A stretch of DNA of 25,267 nt from the IMG/VR virus record IMGVR_UViG_2684622620_000017, positions 1-25,267 of that record, one strand, 5' to 3'. A program made the position numbers and the translations under genes. The stretch comes from a virus. Taxonomy: Duplodnaviria; Heunggongvirae; Uroviricota; Caudoviricetes. Positions 1 to 21,713 of this stretch are shown piece by piece (position 1 is the stretch's first letter; the number at the start of each line of letters is the position of its first letter). The notes beneath the pieces are model-generated. The model was not told the DNA's origin. It saw nothing but the letters and a program-made list of their open reading frames with translations, and did no database searches.

Positions 1-1053
1 TTACGGGGTAATGCCAACCGCTGCCGCCACTTTGTCGCCACTTGGCAGCGTTGCCAGAGGGTTGAAACGGAGCGCCGTTTCCAGATGATCCGGTGCCAGA
101 TGAGCGTAACGCATAGTCATTTTTATATCGTGATGTCCGAGGATTTTTTGCAAAGCAAGGATATTTCCACCCGACATCATGAAATGCGCCGCAAACGTAT
201 GGCGCAGAACGTGTGTCAGTTGACCGCGAGGGAGGACGATAGACGTTTTTTCCATCACGGATAAAAATTGAAAATAGCAGTCTGTGAAGAAATTGAACCC
301 ATCAAGCGCCATGATCTCTTCGTAAAGCTCTTTACTGATAGGGATGCTTCTGTTTTTCTTCCCCTTCGTTCTTACAAAGGTAATTCGGTATTTGGTCACC
401 TGTGAACGAGTAAGATTTACGGCTTCTCGCCAGCGTGCGCCTGTGCTTAAGCATATCTTAACTACCAGTGCCAGAATTGGGTCATGACGTTTGCAATCAG
501 CCAGTAATTCAACAATCTGCTCATGGGTAAGCCATGCCATCTCTTTTTCTGCGATGGTGAATTTTCGCATGTTCTCCAGTGGGTTCGGATACGACCATTC
601 GCCCAGGCGGGATAGTTCGCTAAAAACACTACTTAGATAGCTTTGCTCCAGGTTAATGGTGACCGGGCTTGCTCCTTTCTTCCATTTCTCGCTGAAGTAG
701 ATCTCACCTGTCAGGCGTTTATCTCGATAGTGGGCAAACATTTTAGAGGTTAGATCGGTTGCAAGGGGATTGCCCAGAGCGTCAACCATCAGCAGCAATT
801 TGTCATAGACATGCTGCCCAGCTGTCAGTGATTTACCATGTAGTTTGAACCATAGCTCAACCACGTCTTTCAGTGTTCGACGATCCACTGATTCACCTAG
901 CCAGGGCTTTGCTTCGGTTTCTTCCATCGTGTGACGCTCAAAAGCCAGTGCTTCGCCTTTGGTGGCGAATTGTTTACGCACACGACGTCCACTACGTCCG
1001 GCGGGGTAACATTCGCAAAGCCATTTTCCTGTGGTGAGTTTTCGTACTGCCAT
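1..1053 (-). CDS. int: Phage integrase, tyrosine site-specific recombinase (P2/186 type)
   Basis: 350-aa ORF; C-terminal catalytic region with conserved R...HxxR...Y-type residues (e.g. LRHTFAAH, MRYAHL); GGAGGG RBS upstream of the ATG at 1053; position at the prophage end next to the immunity region. Confidence 0.9.
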   Translation of the reverse strand: MAVRKLTTGKWLCECYPAGRSGRRVRKQFATKGEALAFERHTMEETEAKPWLGESVDRRTLKDVVELWFKLHGKSLTAGQHVYDKLLLMVDALGNPLATDLTSKMFAHYRDKRLTGEIYFSEKWKKGASPVTINLEQSYLSSVFSELSRLGEWSYPNPLENMRKFTIAEKEMAWLTHEQIVELLADCKRHDPILALVVKICLSTGARWREAVNLTRSQVTKYRITFVRTKGKKNRSIPISKELYEEIMALDGFNFFTDCYFQFLSVMEKTSIVLPRGQLTHVLRHTFAAHFMMSGGNILALQKILGHHDIKMTMRYAHLAPDHLETALRFNPLATLPSGDKVAAAVGITP

Positions 1054-1082
1054 AAAAAATGCCCTCCAGTGGAGAGTATTTA

Positions 1083-1102
1083 TACTGTTTTTTTATACAG
1101 TG
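1083..1102. promoter_or_regulatory. LexA-box-like palindrome (TACTGT-N8-ACAGTG) immediately upstream of int
   Basis: Sequence tactgtttttttatacagtg matches the CTGT-N8-ACAG SOS-box core with an AT-rich spacer; lies in the 90-bp gap between the membrane-protein gene stop (1144) and the int start (1053). Confidence 0.35.
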
Positions 1103-1143
1103 TCAATGTATGATGATTGGATAACTATACATATGTTATGTGT

Positions 1144-1824
1144 TTAATGCATTTTAGTTACATCTATGTTTTTATTGATTGTCTCTTTGTTACTGGAAAG
1201 TCTTTGTTCTTTTCTTTTAATGTATAACTCCCAACGAATATTATTCATTATGATAGCGTAGATATTAAAAATAAAAGTCTTTACTACTAACACTAAGTAA
1301 ATAAGGCTAGTCCCTATAACACAGTATCCAAATTTAATAATTAATTCTTTTATCGATTTTGAATATGGAAATAAATCAATTATATTGCCAATTATTCCAT
1401 CTTTTTGACAAAAGAGAATTATTATTAGATAAATGAAAGTAAACGTAATAAATGAGATGAAAACTTTCATAAATGCCATAAAGTTATATTTTAACGTGGG
1501 CATCTGTGTTTTTTTATGTTGTATTGACATCATCTGAAGAAACATCTCGGGTTTGGATAGTGTTGCAAATATTGTGAAACCAGCAATGAGAAAACCTAAG
1601 GTTGTCACTGCAAAGTTAAAACCAATCAAAGCCCAGTTTCTAATGTCAGATACTAAATGAGACATATCCTTCTCAATAAAAAAAGAGTTTGTTAATAAAA
1701 AAATAGATGCTGTGAGCAAAATGCAAATATGGAATGTACTAATAGTAATCCGTTTGCAGAGCAAGTAAACATCCCAAAGGTTTTTCTCTTTGGTTATTTC
1801 TTTAGCATCTATTTTATTTATCAT
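1144..1824 (-). CDS. Hypothetical multi-pass inner-membrane protein (226 aa), distal gene of an AT-rich two-gene cassette; candidate membrane effector
   Basis: Translation shows 4-5 long hydrophobic segments (e.g. ITISTFHICILLTASIFLLTN, WALIGFNFAVTTLGFLIAGFTIFATL, FMAFMKVFISFITFTFIYLIIILF); AT-rich codon usage unlike flanking phage genes; start overlaps the stop of the upstream ORF (ATGA at 1821-1824). Confidence 0.7.
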   Translation of the reverse strand: MINKIDAKEITKEKNLWDVYLLCKRITISTFHICILLTASIFLLTNSFFIEKDMSHLVSDIRNWALIGFNFAVTTLGFLIAGFTIFATLSKPEMFLQMMSIQHKKTQMPTLKYNFMAFMKVFISFITFTFIYLIIILFCQKDGIIGNIIDLFPYSKSIKELIIKFGYCVIGTSLIYLVLVVKTFIFNIYAIIMNNIRWELYIKRKEQRLSSNKETINKNIDVTKMH

Positions 1825-2849
1825 CGACCAAACCTTTCATATATATTGCTAATAATTCTAATCGTCTTTTGTGAAAGAGAACGGGGTAGAGATATCTTAC
1901 CTTCTTCTACAAGATTTTCATACCGCTCATAACTTTCATTTGCAGCTACTACCGTATCCTTTGATAATTCATTCATCTCACTTAACAAAACAAAGTCATC
2001 ATTGCTACCTTTGATTATATCACCATTGTCATCATATCCTTTAATATTTATTCCTGAATTAGCCAATCTGGTTGCTGATGTGAGTTGTTCTAAAACAGCA
2101 CCATGATTCAAGCCTGAATCGGTGTTTGAAAAGCGAATAGATGTAGAAATACTTCCCATTTCGTCTCCGGCACTTTCAAGTGACTCCCAAAATTCGTCGT
2201 TATCAATTTCTTCTTGATTTGTAGGGAGAAGTTTTACTGAGACATTTTGGATTTTATTAAAATTATCAATAAATTGCTCTAGGCTTTGTTTGTCAGTTAA
2301 CGGCGTTATTCTTAGCTTCGGGCGTTTGATTTCGTTCCGTAAGCTTTTTTTAGTGACTCGAGGTAAGTCAGGGTTTTCTTTGCGTTCTTCTTGTGCGGTT
2401 TCGTATAAATGAGATATGTATTTTTCATATTCTATGTTTAAGAAACACTGACTTGTTGACTGAAAGTTTTGAATTGTGGGAGCACCACTAACTTCCTTGC
2501 AAAGAATTAATCTGTGAGTGTTTAATATTAGAAGAAAGAAAGAGCTCGGGGCTGTTTCAAGCTCTTTATGATCTTCAACCAAATCAGCACCATCAAATAC
2601 TTGTTCTCTGGTTAATAATGTATTCTTAATAATCCGACCTTTAATTCCGAGTACTGGGGGTGTTGCTTCTTCGTCAAGTATGACGCATTCAGTATCAATG
2701 AAAAAGAACTCTGATTTGTCAGATATTCTGCGGATGTTTGCCATCTCCAAAAAAGAGGGGAAAACAATTTCATCATAATAGTCTAGCAAAACATCATCAC
2801 CAAAACGGAGAGTATAATTTCCAAATTCGAGTTTTTTTATAAAATCCAT
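1821..2849 (-). CDS. Hypothetical soluble protein (342 aa), proximal gene of the AT-rich two-gene cassette; no family recognised
   Basis: Long AT-rich ORF; GAGG RBS about 8 nt upstream of the ATG at 2849; starts 15 nt downstream of the cI stop; no P-loop or other motif I can identify by eye. Confidence 0.7.
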   Translation of the reverse strand: MDFIKKLEFGNYTLRFGDDVLLDYYDEIVFPSFLEMANIRRISDKSEFFFIDTECVILDEEATPPVLGIKGRIIKNTLLTREQVFDGADLVEDHKELETAPSSFFLLILNTHRLILCKEVSGAPTIQNFQSTSQCFLNIEYEKYISHLYETAQEERKENPDLPRVTKKSLRNEIKRPKLRITPLTDKQSLEQFIDNFNKIQNVSVKLLPTNQEEIDNDEFWESLESAGDEMGSISTSIRFSNTDSGLNHGAVLEQLTSATRLANSGINIKGYDDNGDIIKGSNDDFVLLSEMNELSKDTVVAANESYERYENLVEEGKISLPRSLSQKTIRIISNIYERFGR

Positions 2850-2864
2850 TACTATGCCTCAAGA

Positions 2865-3743
2865 TTAAATAGTACGGTACTGTGAGAAAATTTTGGCAAC
2901 TAATTTTATATCTTCTTTTTCACAATCAAATGTTAAATCATCGTCTGTTACTCGAAGATTGCCTCCAGGTAATAGAAAAATTTGTTTTAACTTGAAATTA
3001 TTTTGGTATTGAACAATCCATCTTCCGTCTTCAACATTAGCTTTATTCATGTGTGCAATATTTATGCAATGTTCGTCTTCAATTGCGAGTAAATCATTAA
3101 AATGAGGAAGCAGGGACTTATCTATCAATAAATGACCAGCATCGAAAATTTGATTGTCAATAAGTTTTACTTTAGGAATTTCTAAAGCTTCACTTTCTTC
3201 GCTTCCAAGTTTTTGCCCGCGCCCAGTTGCTAACCATAAAAGAGAAGTTCTTGTTTCCAACGAGCATCTTATGATCCAGTCAGCTGGGAATGTGTCTCGC
3301 AAGTATCTATTCGCCATTGTGCTTTTAGACACATTCAAATGGTCGGCAAGTTCTTGTCTTGTTTTAAAGCCATACGCTTCCATTAGCCTGTTTATCGCAT
3401 TACGTCCACCTGAATCCAGATTTGGATGGTTCACAATTGGGTTCTCGTTGGTGGTGGCTTTGGGAACATATTGAACCAATGATGCTGGTTCCTCTAATTT
3501 AGCGGGAACTTCGGTATTCTTAGGAAATGGCACGCCTTTTCCGAATGAGAGCCACTCTATAGATGCTCCTGTTTCAATTGCACACTGAATTACCCAGTCA
3601 GCAGGAAATGCGTCACGCATCCAGCGCGTTCCCATAGTACTTGCAGATACATTGAACTGTTCACATAGGGCTTGCCGCGTCTTGAATCCATACGCTTCAA
3701 GCATGCGCGTTATGACTGCCTGTCCTCCGTTTTTGAAATTCAT
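2865..3743 (-). CDS. cI: 186-type CI immunity repressor with a tandem-duplicated N-terminal DNA-binding domain plus C-terminal domain; no LexA-like peptidase domain evident
   Basis: Two internally homologous segments (RMLEAYGFKTRQALCEQFNVSASTMGTRWMRDAFPADWVIQCAIETGASIEWL and RLMEAYGFKTRQELADHLNVSKSTMANRYLRDTFPADWIIRCSLETRTSLLWL) of the phage CI-repressor DNA-binding type. The maximal ORF begins at a GTG at 3776, but the first ATG (3743) has a better context and the GTG overlaps the putative rightward promoter, so 3743 is used. Confidence 0.8.
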   Translation of the reverse strand: MNFKNGGQAVITRMLEAYGFKTRQALCEQFNVSASTMGTRWMRDAFPADWVIQCAIETGASIEWLSFGKGVPFPKNTEVPAKLEEPASLVQYVPKATTNENPIVNHPNLDSGGRNAINRLMEAYGFKTRQELADHLNVSKSTMANRYLRDTFPADWIIRCSLETRTSLLWLATGRGQKLGSEESEALEIPKVKLIDNQIFDAGHLLIDKSLLPHFNDLLAIEDEHCINIAHMNKANVEDGRWIVQYQNNFKLKQIFLLPGGNLRVTDDDLTFDCEKEDIKLVAKIFSQYRTI

Positions 3744-9030: not shown

Positions 9031-9050
9031 TACTGTAAATATAAACAGTG
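9031..9050. promoter_or_regulatory. LexA (SOS) box within the promoter region of the small-ORF/DinI-like operon
   Basis: tactgtaaatataaacagtg matches the CTGT-N8-ACAG palindrome with an AT-rich spacer; located about 40 bp upstream of a strong RBS (AGGAGG) and the ATG at 9091. Confidence 0.55.
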
Positions 9051-9090: not shown

Positions 9091-9279
9091 ATGCAGGACT
9101 ATTTTTTGGAGTCTTTGAAGCTCCAGCGCATTGATTTTTTTCTTAAGCTTGTAGCGGCTAGTGAGTGTAGTGATGAAGAGAAGGGGCTGGCTCTGCAGTG
9201 GGTTTCTGAATTGACAGATGAACTCATGGCAAAAATCAGAAGCCACGAATACAACCGCTCAATGGATGTCATCAGCTGA
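9091..9279 (+). CDS. Small protein (62 aa) in an SOS-controlled operon; candidate Tum-like antirepressor (by position only)
   Basis: AGGAGG RBS 5 nt upstream of the ATG; LexA box upstream; followed 10 nt later by the DinI-like gene. In phage 186 the LexA-controlled operon at this genomic position encodes the antirepressor Tum; homology not verified. Confidence 0.5.
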   Translation: MQDYFLESLKLQRIDFFLKLVAASECSDEEKGLALQWVSELTDELMAKIRSHEYNRSMDVIS

Positions 9280-9289
9280 GGTGACTTTT

Positions 9290-9523
9290 ATGCGCATTGA
9301 AATAATGATCGATAAAGAGCAGAAGATTAGCCAGTCTACCCTGGACGCCCTTGAATCCGAGCTTTACCGCAATCTGCGCCCCCTGTATCCCAAAACGGTA
9401 ATTCGCATTCGCAAAGGTAGCTCTAACGGTGTGGAACTAACCGGACTGCAACTGGATGAAGAAAGAAAACAAGTGATGAAAATTATGCAGAAGGTGTGGG
9501 AGGACGACAGCTGGCTGCATTAA
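9290..9523 (+). CDS. DinI-family protein (damage-inducible, RecA modulator type)
   Basis: 77-aa protein MRIEIMIDKEQKISQSTLDALESELYRNL...QKVWEDDSWL has the DinI family pattern (MRIE... start, acidic C-terminus ending in W); GAGGTG RBS; downstream of the LexA box. Confidence 0.75.
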   Translation: MRIEIMIDKEQKISQSTLDALESELYRNLRPLYPKTVIRIRKGSSNGVELTGLQLDEERKQVMKIMQKVWEDDSWLH

Positions 9524-10449: not shown

Positions 10450-10582
10450 CGCGCGTTATGACAAATAGATGATTAGCCTGATTTATTTACAGCTGTATAA
10501 ATGATCACCTTGTAATTAGGTAAGTAATGTCTTCTATTATCATTGATTTGATAGGATTAATCTGTTTTTTGAGGATTAGAGG

Positions 10583-12919
10583 ATGATTGAAGAGGTAGTT
10601 ATTGACAAGGTAGGCTCATATAATGGCCCTACGCAGCTTTTACATGGACTTTCTAAATTTAACTATTTATATGGAGCTAATGGTGCAGGTAAAACAACTA
10701 TAAGTAAAATTATTAATGACCCTGAACAATATCCAACATGTCCGATTAAATGGAAAAATAATATATCTTTAATAAGCTACGTATATAATAAAGATTTTGT
10801 TGAAAGAAATTTTAGTCAAGATAAAATTAAAGGTGTATTTACCCTTGGTAGCGATCTTAAGGAGGATGAAGAGAAACTAATATCTCTTAAAGAAGAAAAA
10901 AATAAGCTAATGGAATCTATTATAGCAAAGGAAAAGTTAATAGATGGTGGTGATAATGAATTAGGCGTTATTAAAAAAATCGAAGACCATGAAAAATCTT
11001 TTAAAGATTCATGTTGGAAGCAAAAAGTAAAACATGACAATGTGTTCTCAAAGGCTTTTGAGGGATTAAGGAATAGTAGTGAAAAATTTAAAGCCAGAGT
11101 GTTGGCTGAGTATGAAAATAATACATCAGAAGTTTGCTCAATAGCAGAGTTAATTGAGAAAGCAAAAATTGTTTTTTCTACTGAATTGACATCACATGTA
11201 TCAATTACAATTCCATCCTTCAATGGGATAGATGATATTTTGAGTAGGGAAATTTGGAGTGAGCGTATTCTAGGGAAAAAAGACGTTAGTGTTTCAGACT
11301 TAATTACAATGCTCAATAATAGTGATTGGGTTAAGGAGGGTTTAACATATTTCAGTAAATCTAATCCCAAGTGCCCATTCTGCCAGCAGGATGTAAATGA
11401 TAATGTATTTGATAATCTTTCATCATATTTTGATAAAACATATGAGTTAAAAAAAAGAGAAATCGATGCATTGGTTTTACAATATGAATATCAACTTAAT
11501 AATATCTTGAAGGCGATAGATGATATAAGGGCGATTAAATCTCCATTCATAAATTATGAAGTGTTTGAGGATAAGGCTAAGATAGTATTATCTGAATTAA
11601 ACAAGAATTTTGAATTGGCAAAAAATAAACGCAATTTTTTAAGTGAATCAGTTCATTTTAGTGACTTAAGTGAAGTTGTTGATGATTTTATTTCTTTTTT
11701 GAATGATTCAAATCTATTGATAGATAATAATAACAAAATACATAGTAATAGAAAGGTAGAGGCTAGTAATCTTTCTAAGCAGATATGGGCATATATCGTA
11801 AAGGTGGAGTTAAAGTCTGAAATAACTTCTTACCGTAGCAAATCTGATAAATTTAATAGGACGTTACAAGGACTTAAATCTGGGATAGAAGAAGACAAAA
11901 AGAAGTTAATGTTAAATACTTCGGCTATTGAGGCAATTGAGTCTAATAAAACCAGTACTCTTCCAACTATTACAAAAATTAACAAGATTCTGGACTCTTA
12001 TGGCTTCAAAAATTTTTACTTAAAACCCTCCGAAGATAAAAAGCATTATATGATAGTGAGAGATAGTGGAGATAATGCTCGTACAACCCTTAGTGAGGGA
12101 GAAAAGACATTTATCACTTTTTTGTACTTTTATAGCCTTGTTAGAGGGAGTGATAATGCATCAGGTGTTTTAGATGATCGTGTTGTAGTATTTGATGATC
12201 CAATTTCAAGTTTAGATAGTGATATTCTGTTTATTGTAAGTTCGTTGATTAAAGATTTAATGGAGGATGTTCGTAAGGATGAAGGAAATATTAAGCAAAT
12301 TATATTCCTTACTCATAATATTTATTTTCATAAAGAGTTGACTTTTAATACCAAAAGATCCGGTAATCAAGCAATGAAAGAGGAGACTTTTTGGATTGTA
12401 AGGAAAAAAGGGAAGGTTTCATATCTTGAAAAGTGCGAATCAAACCCAATAAAAACGTCTTATGATTTGCTCTGGTGCGAATTGAGAAGAACAGACATTA
12501 ATAATAATACTATACAAAATACAATGCGAAGGATTTTGGAGAATTACTTTAAGATATTAGGTGGGATGGATATTAGGAAGCTTGAGTGTCATTTTTATGG
12601 TGATGAAAAAATCATATTTAAATCTTTAGTGTCATGGATTAATGATGGTTCTCATTTTGCAGGTGATGATCTTTATATGAATTTAGATACGGAGTCTGTG
12701 CAAAAATATTTAATTGTTTTTCAGAAGATATTTGAATGTAGTGAGCATACTGCCCATTACAAAATGATGATGGGTGAGTTTTATAAACCGTTAAATGAGT
12801 CACTTCATCTACAAAATGAGTTTGATATAGATGATAGTGCGAATGATGAGTATGCTTCGTCAAAAATTGAGATAAAAGATGGAATAAACACATCTCTACA
12901 TAGCAACACATATTTGTAA
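10583..12919 (+). CDS. AT-rich 778-aa ABC-type (Rad50/SMC-like) ATPase with coiled-coil insertion and CxxC motif; RloC/PrrC-like candidate anticodon nuclease / abortive-infection protein
   Basis: Walker A GANGAGKTT near the N-terminus; ABC signature-like LSEGEKT, Walker B/D-loop VVVFDDPISSLD and H-loop FLTHN about 480-560 aa downstream; long Lys/Glu-rich, likely coiled-coil insertion with a central CPFC (zinc-hook-like); C-terminal region has RRILE (R-x3-E) followed by conserved His candidates, reminiscent of the PrrC Arg-Glu-His nuclease triad; strong RBS GAGGATTAGAGG. Confidence 0.6.
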   Translation: MIEEVVIDKVGSYNGPTQLLHGLSKFNYLYGANGAGKTTISKIINDPEQYPTCPIKWKNNISLISYVYNKDFVERNFSQDKIKGVFTLGSDLKEDEEKLISLKEEKNKLMESIIAKEKLIDGGDNELGVIKKIEDHEKSFKDSCWKQKVKHDNVFSKAFEGLRNSSEKFKARVLAEYENNTSEVCSIAELIEKAKIVFSTELTSHVSITIPSFNGIDDILSREIWSERILGKKDVSVSDLITMLNNSDWVKEGLTYFSKSNPKCPFCQQDVNDNVFDNLSSYFDKTYELKKREIDALVLQYEYQLNNILKAIDDIRAIKSPFINYEVFEDKAKIVLSELNKNFELAKNKRNFLSESVHFSDLSEVVDDFISFLNDSNLLIDNNNKIHSNRKVEASNLSKQIWAYIVKVELKSEITSYRSKSDKFNRTLQGLKSGIEEDKKKLMLNTSAIEAIESNKTSTLPTITKINKILDSYGFKNFYLKPSEDKKHYMIVRDSGDNARTTLSEGEKTFITFLYFYSLVRGSDNASGVLDDRVVVFDDPISSLDSDILFIVSSLIKDLMEDVRKDEGNIKQIIFLTHNIYFHKELTFNTKRSGNQAMKEETFWIVRKKGKVSYLEKCESNPIKTSYDLLWCELRRTDINNNTIQNTMRRILENYFKILGGMDIRKLECHFYGDEKIIFKSLVSWINDGSHFAGDDLYMNLDTESVQKYLIVFQKIFECSEHTAHYKMMMGEFYKPLNESLHLQNEFDIDDSANDEYASSKIEIKDGINTSLHSNTYL

Positions 12920-20880: not shown

Positions 20881-21274
20881 AGCAGTGCCTTATGTCCGTA
20901 ATAACCCGGACAAACTGCATCTGTTTGTGGATAACGGTTCGCTGGTTGCCACGGGGGCTAGCTCCATGTCATGGGAGTACCGTTACACCCTCAACGTGGT
21001 GATTGAGGATTTCAGCGGCGACCAGAATCTGCTGATGGCCCCGGTTTTGCTGTGGCTGATGGATAACCAGCCCGATGCCATCAATAACCCGGCGTTACGG
21101 GAAAAGCTATTCACCTTTGAGGTGGATATTCTGCGCAACGATGTCTGTGATATCAGCCTGAACCTGCAACTGACGGAGCGTGTGCTGGTCAGCACTGACG
21201 GCAGTGTGTCGAGTGTTGAAGCGGTAGCGGAACCTGATGCACCTGAAGAAATGTGGACGGTGAAACGTGGCTGA
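20843..21274 (+). CDS. R: Tail completion protein R (P2 gpR type)
   Basis: Start placed at the GTG at 20843, preceded by AGGAG at 20831-20835 (the maximal ORF starts at a TTG at 20822); position between lysis genes and S. Confidence 0.7.
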   Translation: MNKPQSLRHSLNKAVPYVRNNPDKLHLFVDNGSLVATGASSMSWEYRYTLNVVIEDFSGDQNLLMAPVLLWLMDNQPDAINNPALREKLFTFEVDILRNDVCDISLNLQLTERVLVSTDGSVSSVEAVAEPDAPEEMWTVKRG

Positions 21275-21713
21275 ACTGCAGAAGGTGGACGACTGGCTGA
21301 GTGCCTTGCTGGCGAATCTGGAACCAGCCACGAGAAGCCGCATGATGCGTCAGCTGGCGCAGGAACTGCGCCGGACACAGCAGCAGAATATCAGGATGCA
21401 GCGCAATCCAGATGGCAGCAGTTATGAACCGCGCAGGGTAACAGCACGCAGCAAGAAGGGGCGCATCAAACGTCAGATGTTTGCAAAGCTGCGCACCACA
21501 AAATACCTGAAAACTGCCGCCAGCGCCGACTCTGCCAGCGTACAGTTTGAAGGCAAGGTGCAGCGTATTGCCCGTGTTCACCATTACGGCCTGCGTGATC
21601 GCGTCAGTCGCAAAGGACCGGAGGTCCGTTACGCAGAGCGCCGCCTGCTGGGTGTAAATGATGATGTTGAGGCAATGACCCGCGACATGATTCTGCAATG
21701 GCTGGCGGGGTGA
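21267..21713 (+). CDS. S: Tail completion protein S (P2 gpS type)
   Basis: 148-aa ORF with GTG start overlapping the R stop; position before V. Confidence 0.75.
   Translation: MAELQKVDDWLSALLANLEPATRSRMMRQLAQELRRTQQQNIRMQRNPDGSSYEPRRVTARSKKGRIKRQMFAKLRTTKYLKTAASADSASVQFEGKVQRIARVHHYGLRDRVSRKGPEVRYAERRLLGVNDDVEAMTRDMILQWLAG

What the first reader, a model, noticed from the sequence alone, without database searches (positions are those of the whole stretch)
1144..2849. Unclassified AT-rich two-gene cassette (soluble 342-aa protein plus 226-aa multi-pass membrane protein) embedded in the cI-int lysogenic operon: candidate novel exclusion/abortive-infection system
Seen in sequence: two minus-strand genes fill the space between the CI repressor stop (2865) and int (start 1053). 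They are visibly far more AT-rich than flanking phage genes, the first starts 15 nt after the cI stop with its own RBS, and the second overlaps the first by ATGA (translational coupling). The distal protein has 4-5 hydrophobic helices; the proximal protein has no motif I can recognise. In 186-like phages cI and int are co-transcribed from the lysogenic promoter, so by inference this cassette would be expressed constitutively in lysogens, the classic context for prophage superinfection-exclusion modules (compare lambda cI-rexA-rexB, where a soluble sensor partners a membrane effector). Architecture alone (soluble sensor plus membrane effector) resembles RexAB or Kiwi-like systems, but I cannot assert homology to any named family.
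Basis: partly seen in the sequence, partly recalled or inferred. Interest (0 to 1): 0.85.

Follow-up and report, generated by a model that had tools for sequence, protein, structure and literature searches.

The report
RexAB-like defence pair behind prophage repressor
Two unannotated genes wedged between the repressor and integrase genes of a 186-like E. coli prophage encode a protein with the fold of phage lambda's RexA plus a four-helix membrane partner, so they are most likely an uncatalogued relative of the classic RexAB system that kills or arrests infected cells to stop other phages.

The parts
1821..2849 (-). Gene A: 342-aa soluble, acidic (pI 4.7) protein with the RexA fold; proposed sensor/activator
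1144..1824 (-). Gene B: 226-aa basic inner-membrane protein with four TM helices (N-in/C-in); proposed effector
   Evidence: ORF. Hydropathy and positive-inside distribution. AF2 model has pLDDT 84.9 with helices 30-50, 54-89, 110-138 and 155-225. TM2 and the central cytoplasmic loop are highly conserved. No family hits and no BFVD structural match.
1821..1824 (-). ATGA overlap of the A stop and B start (translational coupling)
   Evidence: Sequence read. Abutting or overlapping A-B junctions occur in all related loci.
2850..2864 (-). 15-nt cI-A spacer with a GAGG ribosome-binding site; no promoter or terminator predicted
2865..3743 (-). cI repressor (RefSeq start; the ORF could extend to 3776), with two tandem PF07022 HTH domains and a PF16452 C-terminal domain; first gene of the presumed cI-A-B transcript
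2865..3221 (-). The 3' third of cI, encoding the CI C-terminal domain; AT-rich and part of the variable segment that travels with A and B
   Evidence: GC is 0.28-0.33 here. Backbone homology to prophages with other cargo resumes only at 3221-3223. The CTD is 26-27% identical to those prophages, against 83-84% for the N-terminal part. CTD identity tracks A/B identity across 8 loci.
1113..1143 (-). Right-hand junction of the cassette; conserved backbone begins at about 1112-1116
   Evidence: blastn end points against L002, L003, L011 and L027 and against 1134 E. coli genomes.
1054..1112 (-). Conserved int-upstream backbone element, not part of the cassette: TTGACA-16 nt-TATAAA with a LexA-box-like CTGT-N8-ACAG (1085-1100), then a hairpin plus T-run (1062-1076) that includes the int Shine-Dalgarno sequence
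1..1053 (-). P2/186-type tyrosine integrase, the downstream neighbour that defines the slot

Best explanation
The cassette is a RexAB-type two-component anti-phage module carried as cargo in the cI-int hotspot of a 186-like prophage. Shown: A has the two-domain RexA/RdgC-like fold. B is a conserved four-TM inner-membrane protein encoded immediately downstream and translationally coupled. The pair is strictly conserved as a unit and is found in prophage defence hotspots and chromosomal defence islands. A starts 15 nt after cI with no intervening promoter or terminator signal. Inferred: in the lysogen cI-A-B are co-transcribed from the lysogenic promoter, as lambda cI-rexA-rexB are from PRM. A, probably a dimer, senses an early product of a superinfecting phage, either a nucleoprotein or replication intermediate or a phage protein. 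A then activates B through B's conserved cytoplasmic N-terminal segment and central loop. B oligomerises or opens and depolarises or permeabilises the inner membrane. That lowers ATP, arrests growth and aborts the infection, which protects sister lysogens and the prophage.
Against: No phenotype has been tested. Sequence-level homology to RexA is not established. The Pfam RexA and PADLOC RexA/RexB models hit the lambda proteins but not A or B. BLASTP is non-significant. HMM-versus-sequence scores are no better than shuffled controls. hhalign probability is only about 3%. The global TM-score to RexA is low (0.31-0.36), so similarity is domain-wise and the relative domain orientation differs or is flexible. 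A is strongly acidic (pI 4.7, net -20) whereas lambda RexA is basic (pI 8.6), so non-specific DNA binding cannot simply be assumed. B is 60% longer than RexB and has no detectable sequence or structural relation to it. Co-transcription with cI is inferred from spacing only.
Confidence: 0.6

Rival explanations
1. The pair mainly tunes the prophage's own lysis-lysogeny switch. A (and perhaps B) would bind the CI C-terminal domain and bias induction, as lambda RexA does, with phage exclusion secondary or absent.
For: Lambda RexA binds CI, apparently through the C-terminal domains, and promotes the lytic state (bioRxiv 10.1101/2021.04.19.439022; PMC11077077). Here the CI C-terminal domain lies inside the variable AT-rich segment. 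Its identity tracks that of A/B across 8 loci while the HTH part does not.
Against: The A-B pair occurs without any CI or prophage context beside Druantia, R-M and GmrSD, and alone in Pseudomonas. Four of 15 viral contigs lack this CI/int. Co-divergence of adjacent DNA can be plain linkage. L002 and L003 share a 74%-identical CTD but carry unrelated cargo.
Confidence: 0.12
2. The pair is a toxin-antitoxin-like addiction or stress module. B would be a membrane toxin held in check by A, stabilising the mobile element without sensing phages.
For: It is a small two-gene, translationally coupled, horizontally mobile module with a membrane protein. It lies near HigB in Pseudomonas. In mycobacteriophage Butters the Rex-like pair behaves partly like a toxic protein and its modulator (PMC7542560).
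Against: The soluble protein is large (342 aa) with a RexA/RdgC-type fold rather than an antitoxin fold. In RexABpp the soluble protein activates the membrane protein rather than neutralising it. The pair is enriched in defence hotspots.
Confidence: 0.1
3. The pair is a non-abortive superinfection-exclusion system. The membrane protein would block DNA injection or receptor function (Sie/Imm-like) with A as an accessory factor.
For: It is a prophage-encoded inner-membrane protein expressed in lysogeny, which is the classic context for Sie-type proteins (own knowledge).
Against: Sie-type systems do not need a 342-aa cytoplasmic RexA-fold partner. The strict A-B coupling and the RexA fold point to intracellular sensing.
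Confidence: 0.08
4. The pair is a Kiwa-like system (KwaA membrane protein plus KwaB DUF4868).
For: Only the general architecture supports this: a roughly 200-aa four-TM protein plus a roughly 320-aa soluble protein.
Against: There are no PADLOC or Pfam hits to KwaA, KwaB or DUF4868. The gene order is reversed, with the soluble gene first. No Kiwa entry appears among the top PDB hits, whereas RexA is first.
Confidence: 0.02

Closest known systems
Lambda RexA/RexB (Pfam PF15969/PF15968; PDB 8TWQ)
   Same: A has the RexA fold. A four-TM N-in/C-in membrane partner is encoded immediately downstream. The order is sensor then membrane gene, placed directly after the immunity repressor gene on the same strand with no signal in between. 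It is accessory prophage cargo.
   Different: There is no detectable sequence similarity for either protein. A is 342 aa and acidic (pI 4.7), against 279 aa and basic (pI 8.6) for RexA. B is 226 aa against 144 aa for RexB and is unrelated by sequence and by Foldseek. The host phage is 186/P2-like rather than lambdoid. The family is far larger and taxonomically broader, with 695 clusters at 50% identity against 36 clusters at 90% for RexA.
P. putida prophage P1 RexABpp (PP_5643/PP_5644; PMC12894663)
   Different: It is probably a separate lineage. The termini deduced from its published primers (MHRTATFV....SITALMV; MLIGQLAKPL....LGYKLQE) were not found in any of the 425 retrieved proteins. RexApp appears to lack the family's invariant Asn11. 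The full sequence could not be fetched, so the relationship is not settled.
Actinobacteriophage Rex-like systems (Sbash gp30/31, CarolAnn gp44/43, Butters gp30/31, Toast gp42)
   Same: Each has a soluble protein of 337-372 aa with a weak DUF4747 signal plus a small four-TM protein. They are lysogenically expressed, in CarolAnn with the repressor. A conserved central cytoplasmic loop of the membrane protein is needed for defence. [quoted passage not shown]
   Different: Their defence is experimentally shown, whereas this pair's is not.
RdgC and the kinetochore proteins Iml3/Chl4 (CENP-L/CENP-N)
   Different: They have unrelated biology (recombination control, centromere binding), no membrane partner and no prophage context.

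Membership tests
Lambda RexAB (RexA PF15969 / PADLOC RexA) | Soluble component matches the RexA sequence profile | tested here: not met
   No Pfam or PADLOC hit for A or for 10 divergent relatives. The same models hit lambda RexA at 1e-97 and 9e-110. BLASTP E is 0.55. HMM-versus-sequence scores equal shuffled controls. hhalign gives P 0.015-0.018 at probability about 3%.
Lambda RexAB | Soluble component has the RexA three-dimensional fold (split globular domain plus dimerisation domain, RdgC/Iml3-like) | tested here: met
Lambda RexAB (RexB PF15968 / PADLOC RexB) | Membrane component is homologous to RexB | tested here: not met
   No Pfam or PADLOC hit, BLASTP not significant, and Foldseek against BFVD gives a best E of 1.2.
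RexAB-type systems (functional class) | Four-TM inner-membrane partner with cytoplasmic termini, encoded directly downstream of the sensor gene | tested here: met
   Searches give the topology. Searches show A followed by B in 32/32 loci.
RexAB-type systems (functional class) | Expressed in the lysogen together with the immunity repressor | tested here: inconclusive
   The gene arrangement fits: a 15-nt gap, the same strand, and no promoter or terminator motif between cI and A. No transcript data are available.
RexAB-type systems (functional class) | Sensor is a dimer that binds DNA non-specifically | not testable with these tools
   This needs SEC-MALS and EMSA. As a caution, A is acidic (pI 4.73) although five basic positions are conserved (R40, R72, K75, R81, R113).
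RexAB-type systems (functional class) | Confers phage exclusion with membrane depolarisation or permeabilisation | not testable with these tools
   This needs plaque assays and membrane-potential or PI assays.
DUF4747 (PF15931) | Score above the Pfam gathering threshold (27 bits) | tested here: not met
   The window protein has no hit. Four of 58 close homologs hit at E>=1.2e-4 and about 21 bits, below the cut-off. None of 10 divergent relatives hit.
Kiwa (KwaA/KwaB, DUF4868) | KwaA and KwaB profile matches, with the membrane gene first | tested here: not met
   No PADLOC or Pfam hits. The gene order is soluble then membrane. No Kiwa entry is among the top structural hits. Whether Kiwa structures are in the library copy was not checked.
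P. putida RexABpp lineage | Sequence relationship to PP_5643/PP_5644 | tested here: inconclusive
   The sequence was not retrievable. Primer-derived termini are absent from all retrieved proteins, and the N-terminus lacks the invariant Asn.

The most novel reading that the evidence does not exclude
The CI C-terminal domain, A and B may form a co-evolving three-part unit. The RexA-fold protein would dock on its cognate repressor C-terminal domain, as lambda RexA does on CI. One module would then both guard the lysogen by abortive infection and feed repressor status into the lysis-lysogeny decision. This would also mean that a roughly 700-cluster, uncatalogued, acidic RexA-fold family senses something other than bulk DNA.
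Probability: 0.15. Interest if true: 0.75.

Novelty: new variant of a known kind. Interest (0 to 1): 0.55.

Why it matters
RexAB is the oldest known phage-exclusion system, yet its mechanism is still unresolved and its recognised family is tiny: 36 clusters, all Enterobacterales. This cassette belongs to a much larger RexA-fold family, with 695 representatives at 50% identity across Gamma- and Betaproteobacteria. The Pfam, NCBIfam, PHROG and PADLOC v2.0.0 models used here miss that family entirely. If it defends, it would add a widespread system to defence catalogues. It would also show that the 'repressor, then RexA-like gene, then membrane gene' layout arose or spread in 186/P2-like phages as well as in lambdoid phages and actinophages. 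The natural variants differ in sensor charge, membrane partner and linked CI C-terminal domain, and comparing them could help work out how Rex-type sensors trigger their membrane effectors. It also documents the cI-int interval of E. coli 186-like prophages as a rich defence hotspot.

Tried and rejected
Several searches gave nothing.
- Direct family scans of A and B against Pfam, PADLOC, PHROGs and NCBIfam found nothing. Ten divergent relatives also found nothing.
- Sequence-profile searches of the PDB with two alignments gave only chance hits.
- BLASTP against lambda RexA and RexB was not significant. HMM-versus-sequence searches in both directions scored no better than shuffled controls.
- Foldseek of the B model against BFVD was not significant.
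- hhalign of the A family against the PDC-M18A protein found at the same slot in other prophages showed no relation.
- Rfam found nothing in the window.

The attempt to fetch the P. putida rexABpp locus failed. A primer-derived 20-mer found nothing in the genome collection. The search for related loci with the broad alignment A4 failed for lack of a conserved stretch. The primer-derived termini matched none of the retrieved proteins. A literature search for the two RefSeq accessions found nothing.

Two readings were rejected. Kiwa was rejected for lack of profile hits and reversed gene order. A core-phage-gene role was rejected because the cassette is in 13 of 5426 genomes whereas 1134 have the integrase backbone, and the common state of the slot is cI, a 63-aa ORF, then int.

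Full report
OBSERVATION. The window is a 186/P2-like prophage integrated next to rcdA/ybjJ. It is identical to E. coli 20A24 (NZ_CP147044). On the minus strand the order is cI (2865-3743, or 3776 by ORF), A (1821-2849, 342 aa), B (1144-1824, 226 aa), then int (1-1053). The cI stop is followed by 15 nt containing GAGG and then the ATG of A. The A stop and B start overlap as ATGA. GC is 0.353 for A and 0.279 for B, against 0.482 for int and 0.506 for the rest of the window. No promoter-like or terminator-like motif lies between cI and A. A has no hydrophobic segment. B has four, which form four long helices in the AlphaFold model.

The genes are real and accessory. A has 167 and B has 280 homolog clusters at 90% identity, nearly all full length, in Enterobacterales, Vibrio, Shewanella, Pseudoalteromonas, Aeromonas, Pseudomonas and others. 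Only 13 of 5426 complete E. coli genomes carry the cassette, whereas 1134 carry the integrase backbone. The common state of the slot is cI (189 aa), a 63-aa ORF, then int.

WHAT THE PROTEINS ARE. Neither protein matches any model in Pfam, PADLOC 2.0, PHROGs or NCBIfam. A profile search of 1.84 billion representatives shows that A belongs to a large, length-conserved (about 320-350 aa) family. It has 695 representatives at E<=1e-3 and 354 at E<=1e-30. Ten divergent members also match nothing in Pfam or PADLOC.

At sequence level the link is not established.
- BLASTP is non-significant.
- HMM-versus-sequence scores equal shuffled controls.
- PDB profile searches are empty.
- The RexA models of Pfam and PADLOC recognise lambda RexA but not A.
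- Profile-profile alignment gives a collinear, nearly full-length alignment (A 15-316 with RexA 15-265), but only P 0.015 and probability about 3%.
- Four of 58 close homologs give sub-threshold DUF4747 hits, best E 1.2e-4. Published HHpred analyses report that domain in RexA, Sbash gp30 and CarolAnn gp44.

B is a basic (pI 9.5) protein with four TM helices. The positive-inside rule gives N-in/C-in topology. It has a nearly invariant TM2 (GFLIAGFTIFATLSKP), a conserved cytoplasmic N-terminal motif (ELTxEKxLW), a conserved central cytoplasmic loop, and conserved polar residues inside the helices. It shows no relation to RexB by BLASTP, Pfam, PADLOC or Foldseek against BFVD.

THE PAIR AND ITS CONTEXTS. 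In every locus where DNA downstream of A could be read, a B homolog follows on the same strand, abutting or overlapping. That covers 17 distinct genomic loci including Betaproteobacteria and 15 viral contigs.

The cI-A-B-int layout recurs widely.
- Serratia prophages.
- Klebsiella phage 4LV2017, where A' is 42-43% identical and B' is an unannotated ORF at 1244-1849.
- Eleven of 15 IMG/VR contigs.

Outside prophages the pair also sits among defence genes.
- It lies next to a Druantia-type locus (DruA through a DEAD/MZB helicase) in Vibrio harveyi.
- It lies between an Eco57I-type methylase gene with a DEAD/MZB helicase gene and GmrSD in Cobetia.
- It lies near type I R-M, ResIII helicases and WYL regulators in some of 10 further genomes.
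- It stands alone near HigB in a Pseudomonas.

In other E. coli prophages with the same int, the slot carries other cargo. Those with the same cI HTH region hold PADLOC candidate systems PDC-M18 (A+B) and HEC-01 (AAA ATPase + DUF4276). Others hold DUF4041/SNIPE-associated, KAP/P-loop NTPase and Panacea-domain genes. A cI-integrase hotspot in P2-related Vibrio phages is described in PMC9122126. [quoted passage not shown]

MECHANISM. The best-supported reading is a RexAB-type abortive-infection or exclusion module. Shown: the RexA fold of A, the four-TM partner, strict pairing, translational coupling, placement directly behind cI, and association with a defence hotspot and defence islands. Inferred by analogy: constitutive co-transcription with cI in the lysogen, sensing of an infection cue by a dimeric A, activation of B through its cytoplasmic loop or N-terminus, membrane depolarisation or permeabilisation, and growth arrest. 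The analogies are lambda RexAB, the actinophage systems and P. putida RexABpp, where overexpressing the soluble protein causes RexB-dependent membrane damage.

One real difference tempers the analogy. A is strongly acidic (pI 4.73, net -20) whereas lambda RexA has pI 8.61. Only a cluster of five conserved basic positions in the N-terminal domain could serve nucleic-acid binding. The trigger may therefore be a protein rather than DNA. I put 0.6 on the overall explanation.

RIVALS.
- A switch-modulating role, as for lambda RexA binding CI. It is suggested by an unexpected finding described below, but it is weakened because the pair occurs without CI in many genomes.
- An addiction or TA-like module.
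- A non-abortive Sie-like block.
- Kiwa.
The last three are less likely for the reasons given in the rival entries.

BOUNDARIES AND THE CI LINKAGE. Backbone homology to prophages with other cargo ends at window 1112-1116 on the int side. It resumes only at 3221-3223, inside cI. The window's CI is 83-84% identical to those prophages in its N-terminal (double HTH) part but only 26-27% identical in the C-terminal domain. That part of cI is AT-rich like the cassette (GC 0.28-0.33). Across eight A-B-carrying loci the CI C-terminal-domain identity to the window tracks cassette identity. It is 88% and 86% at A 95% and 92%, 46% and 45% at A 76%, 34-35% at A 59-60%, and 28% at A 43%. The HTH part stays at 66-79% throughout. 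This may be simple linkage, since L002 and L003 share a 74%-identical CTD but carry unrelated cargo. It also parallels the reported contact between lambda RexA and CI, which appears to involve their C-terminal domains.

COMPARISON AND NOVELTY. The cassette works like RexAB as far as anatomy can tell, but it fails the sequence definitions of both RexA and RexB. It is therefore not a member of that family in the database sense. It is a distant structural relative of RexA paired with an unrelated four-TM partner. The P. putida RexABpp system was assigned on the same kind of evidence and shown experimentally to defend. The deduced termini of its proteins do not occur among the retrieved family members, and RexApp appears to lack the family's invariant Asn11. 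It is therefore probably another lineage, although I could not fetch its sequence. No paper mentions the two RefSeq accessions. I rate this a new variant of a known kind. The interest (0.55) lies in the size and breadth of an uncatalogued RexA-fold family, its occurrence in the repressor-proximal slot of a second, unrelated temperate-phage lineage, and the CI-domain linkage. The defence phenotype itself remains untested.

Noticed in passing
window 1054-1116 (minus strand); LexA-like box 1085-1100; hairpin 1062-1076: Directly upstream of int lies a strong promoter-like site, TTGACA-16 nt-TATAAA. Its spacer is a perfect CTGT-N8-ACAG LexA-box core (2 in the window against 0.21 expected). It is followed by a GC-rich hairpin plus T-run that contains the int Shine-Dalgarno sequence. 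The TTGAC/CTG(T/G)-N8-ACAG element and the hairpin, which shows compensatory stem changes, are conserved in all related backbones whatever the cargo, including Serratia. int may therefore be SOS-controlled, or the cI-cargo transcript may stop here. A conserved inverted repeat, ATGTATG...CATACAT, sits just upstream.
   Followed up: partly
window 2865-3221 (3' third of cI): There is a mosaic breakpoint inside cI. The CI C-terminal (oligomerisation) domain is AT-rich and only 26-27% identical to that of prophages sharing an 83-84% identical HTH part. Its identity co-varies with that of the A-B cassette across eight loci.
   Followed up: partly
window 2865-3743: CI is 292-303 aa and has two tandem PF07022 HTH domains (residues about 20-80 and 127-188). 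Phage 186-like relatives in Serratia and many E. coli have a single-HTH CI of 189 aa. Klebsiella phage 4LV2017 also has the duplicated form at 313 aa.
   Followed up: partly
window 10524-12572 (plus strand): A retron St85 family effector gene (10524-11447) and its reverse transcriptase (11685-12572) lie in the classical P2 gpA-portal hotspot of the same prophage. The element therefore carries at least two defence-type cargos. Rfam found no retron ncRNA at gathering threshold.
   Followed up: no
window 20897-21703 (minus strand): A DUF6216 family gene lies on the opposite strand between the virion-morphogenesis and baseplate gene V genes. It may be another moron in the tail-gene hotspot.
   Followed up: no
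window 9033-9048: A second perfect CTGT-N8-ACAG box lies about 43 nt upstream of a 62-aa ORF (9091-9279) followed by a DinI-like gene (9290-9523). This is probably the counterpart of the LexA-controlled tum region of phage 186 (the tum comparison is from my own knowledge).
   Followed up: no
L011 (Klebsiella phage 4LV2017, NC_047818) 1244-1849, minus strand: This sequenced phage record leaves the 201-aa B homolog unannotated. It sits in the gap between gp02 (the A homolog) and int.
   Followed up: yes
L002 2634-4359 (E. coli strain 64): The PDC-M18 candidate system at the same slot also consists of a roughly 400-aa soluble protein followed by a small (173-aa) protein with a faint membrane-protein (DUF4271) hit. 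hhalign shows no relation between PDC-M18A and the A family.
   Followed up: partly
protein P0180 (285 aa, B-family homolog): One B homolog carries a C-terminal HTH_73 domain (PF24718, E 2.7e-11) fused after the four-TM part. This is an odd membrane-anchored HTH variant.
   Followed up: no
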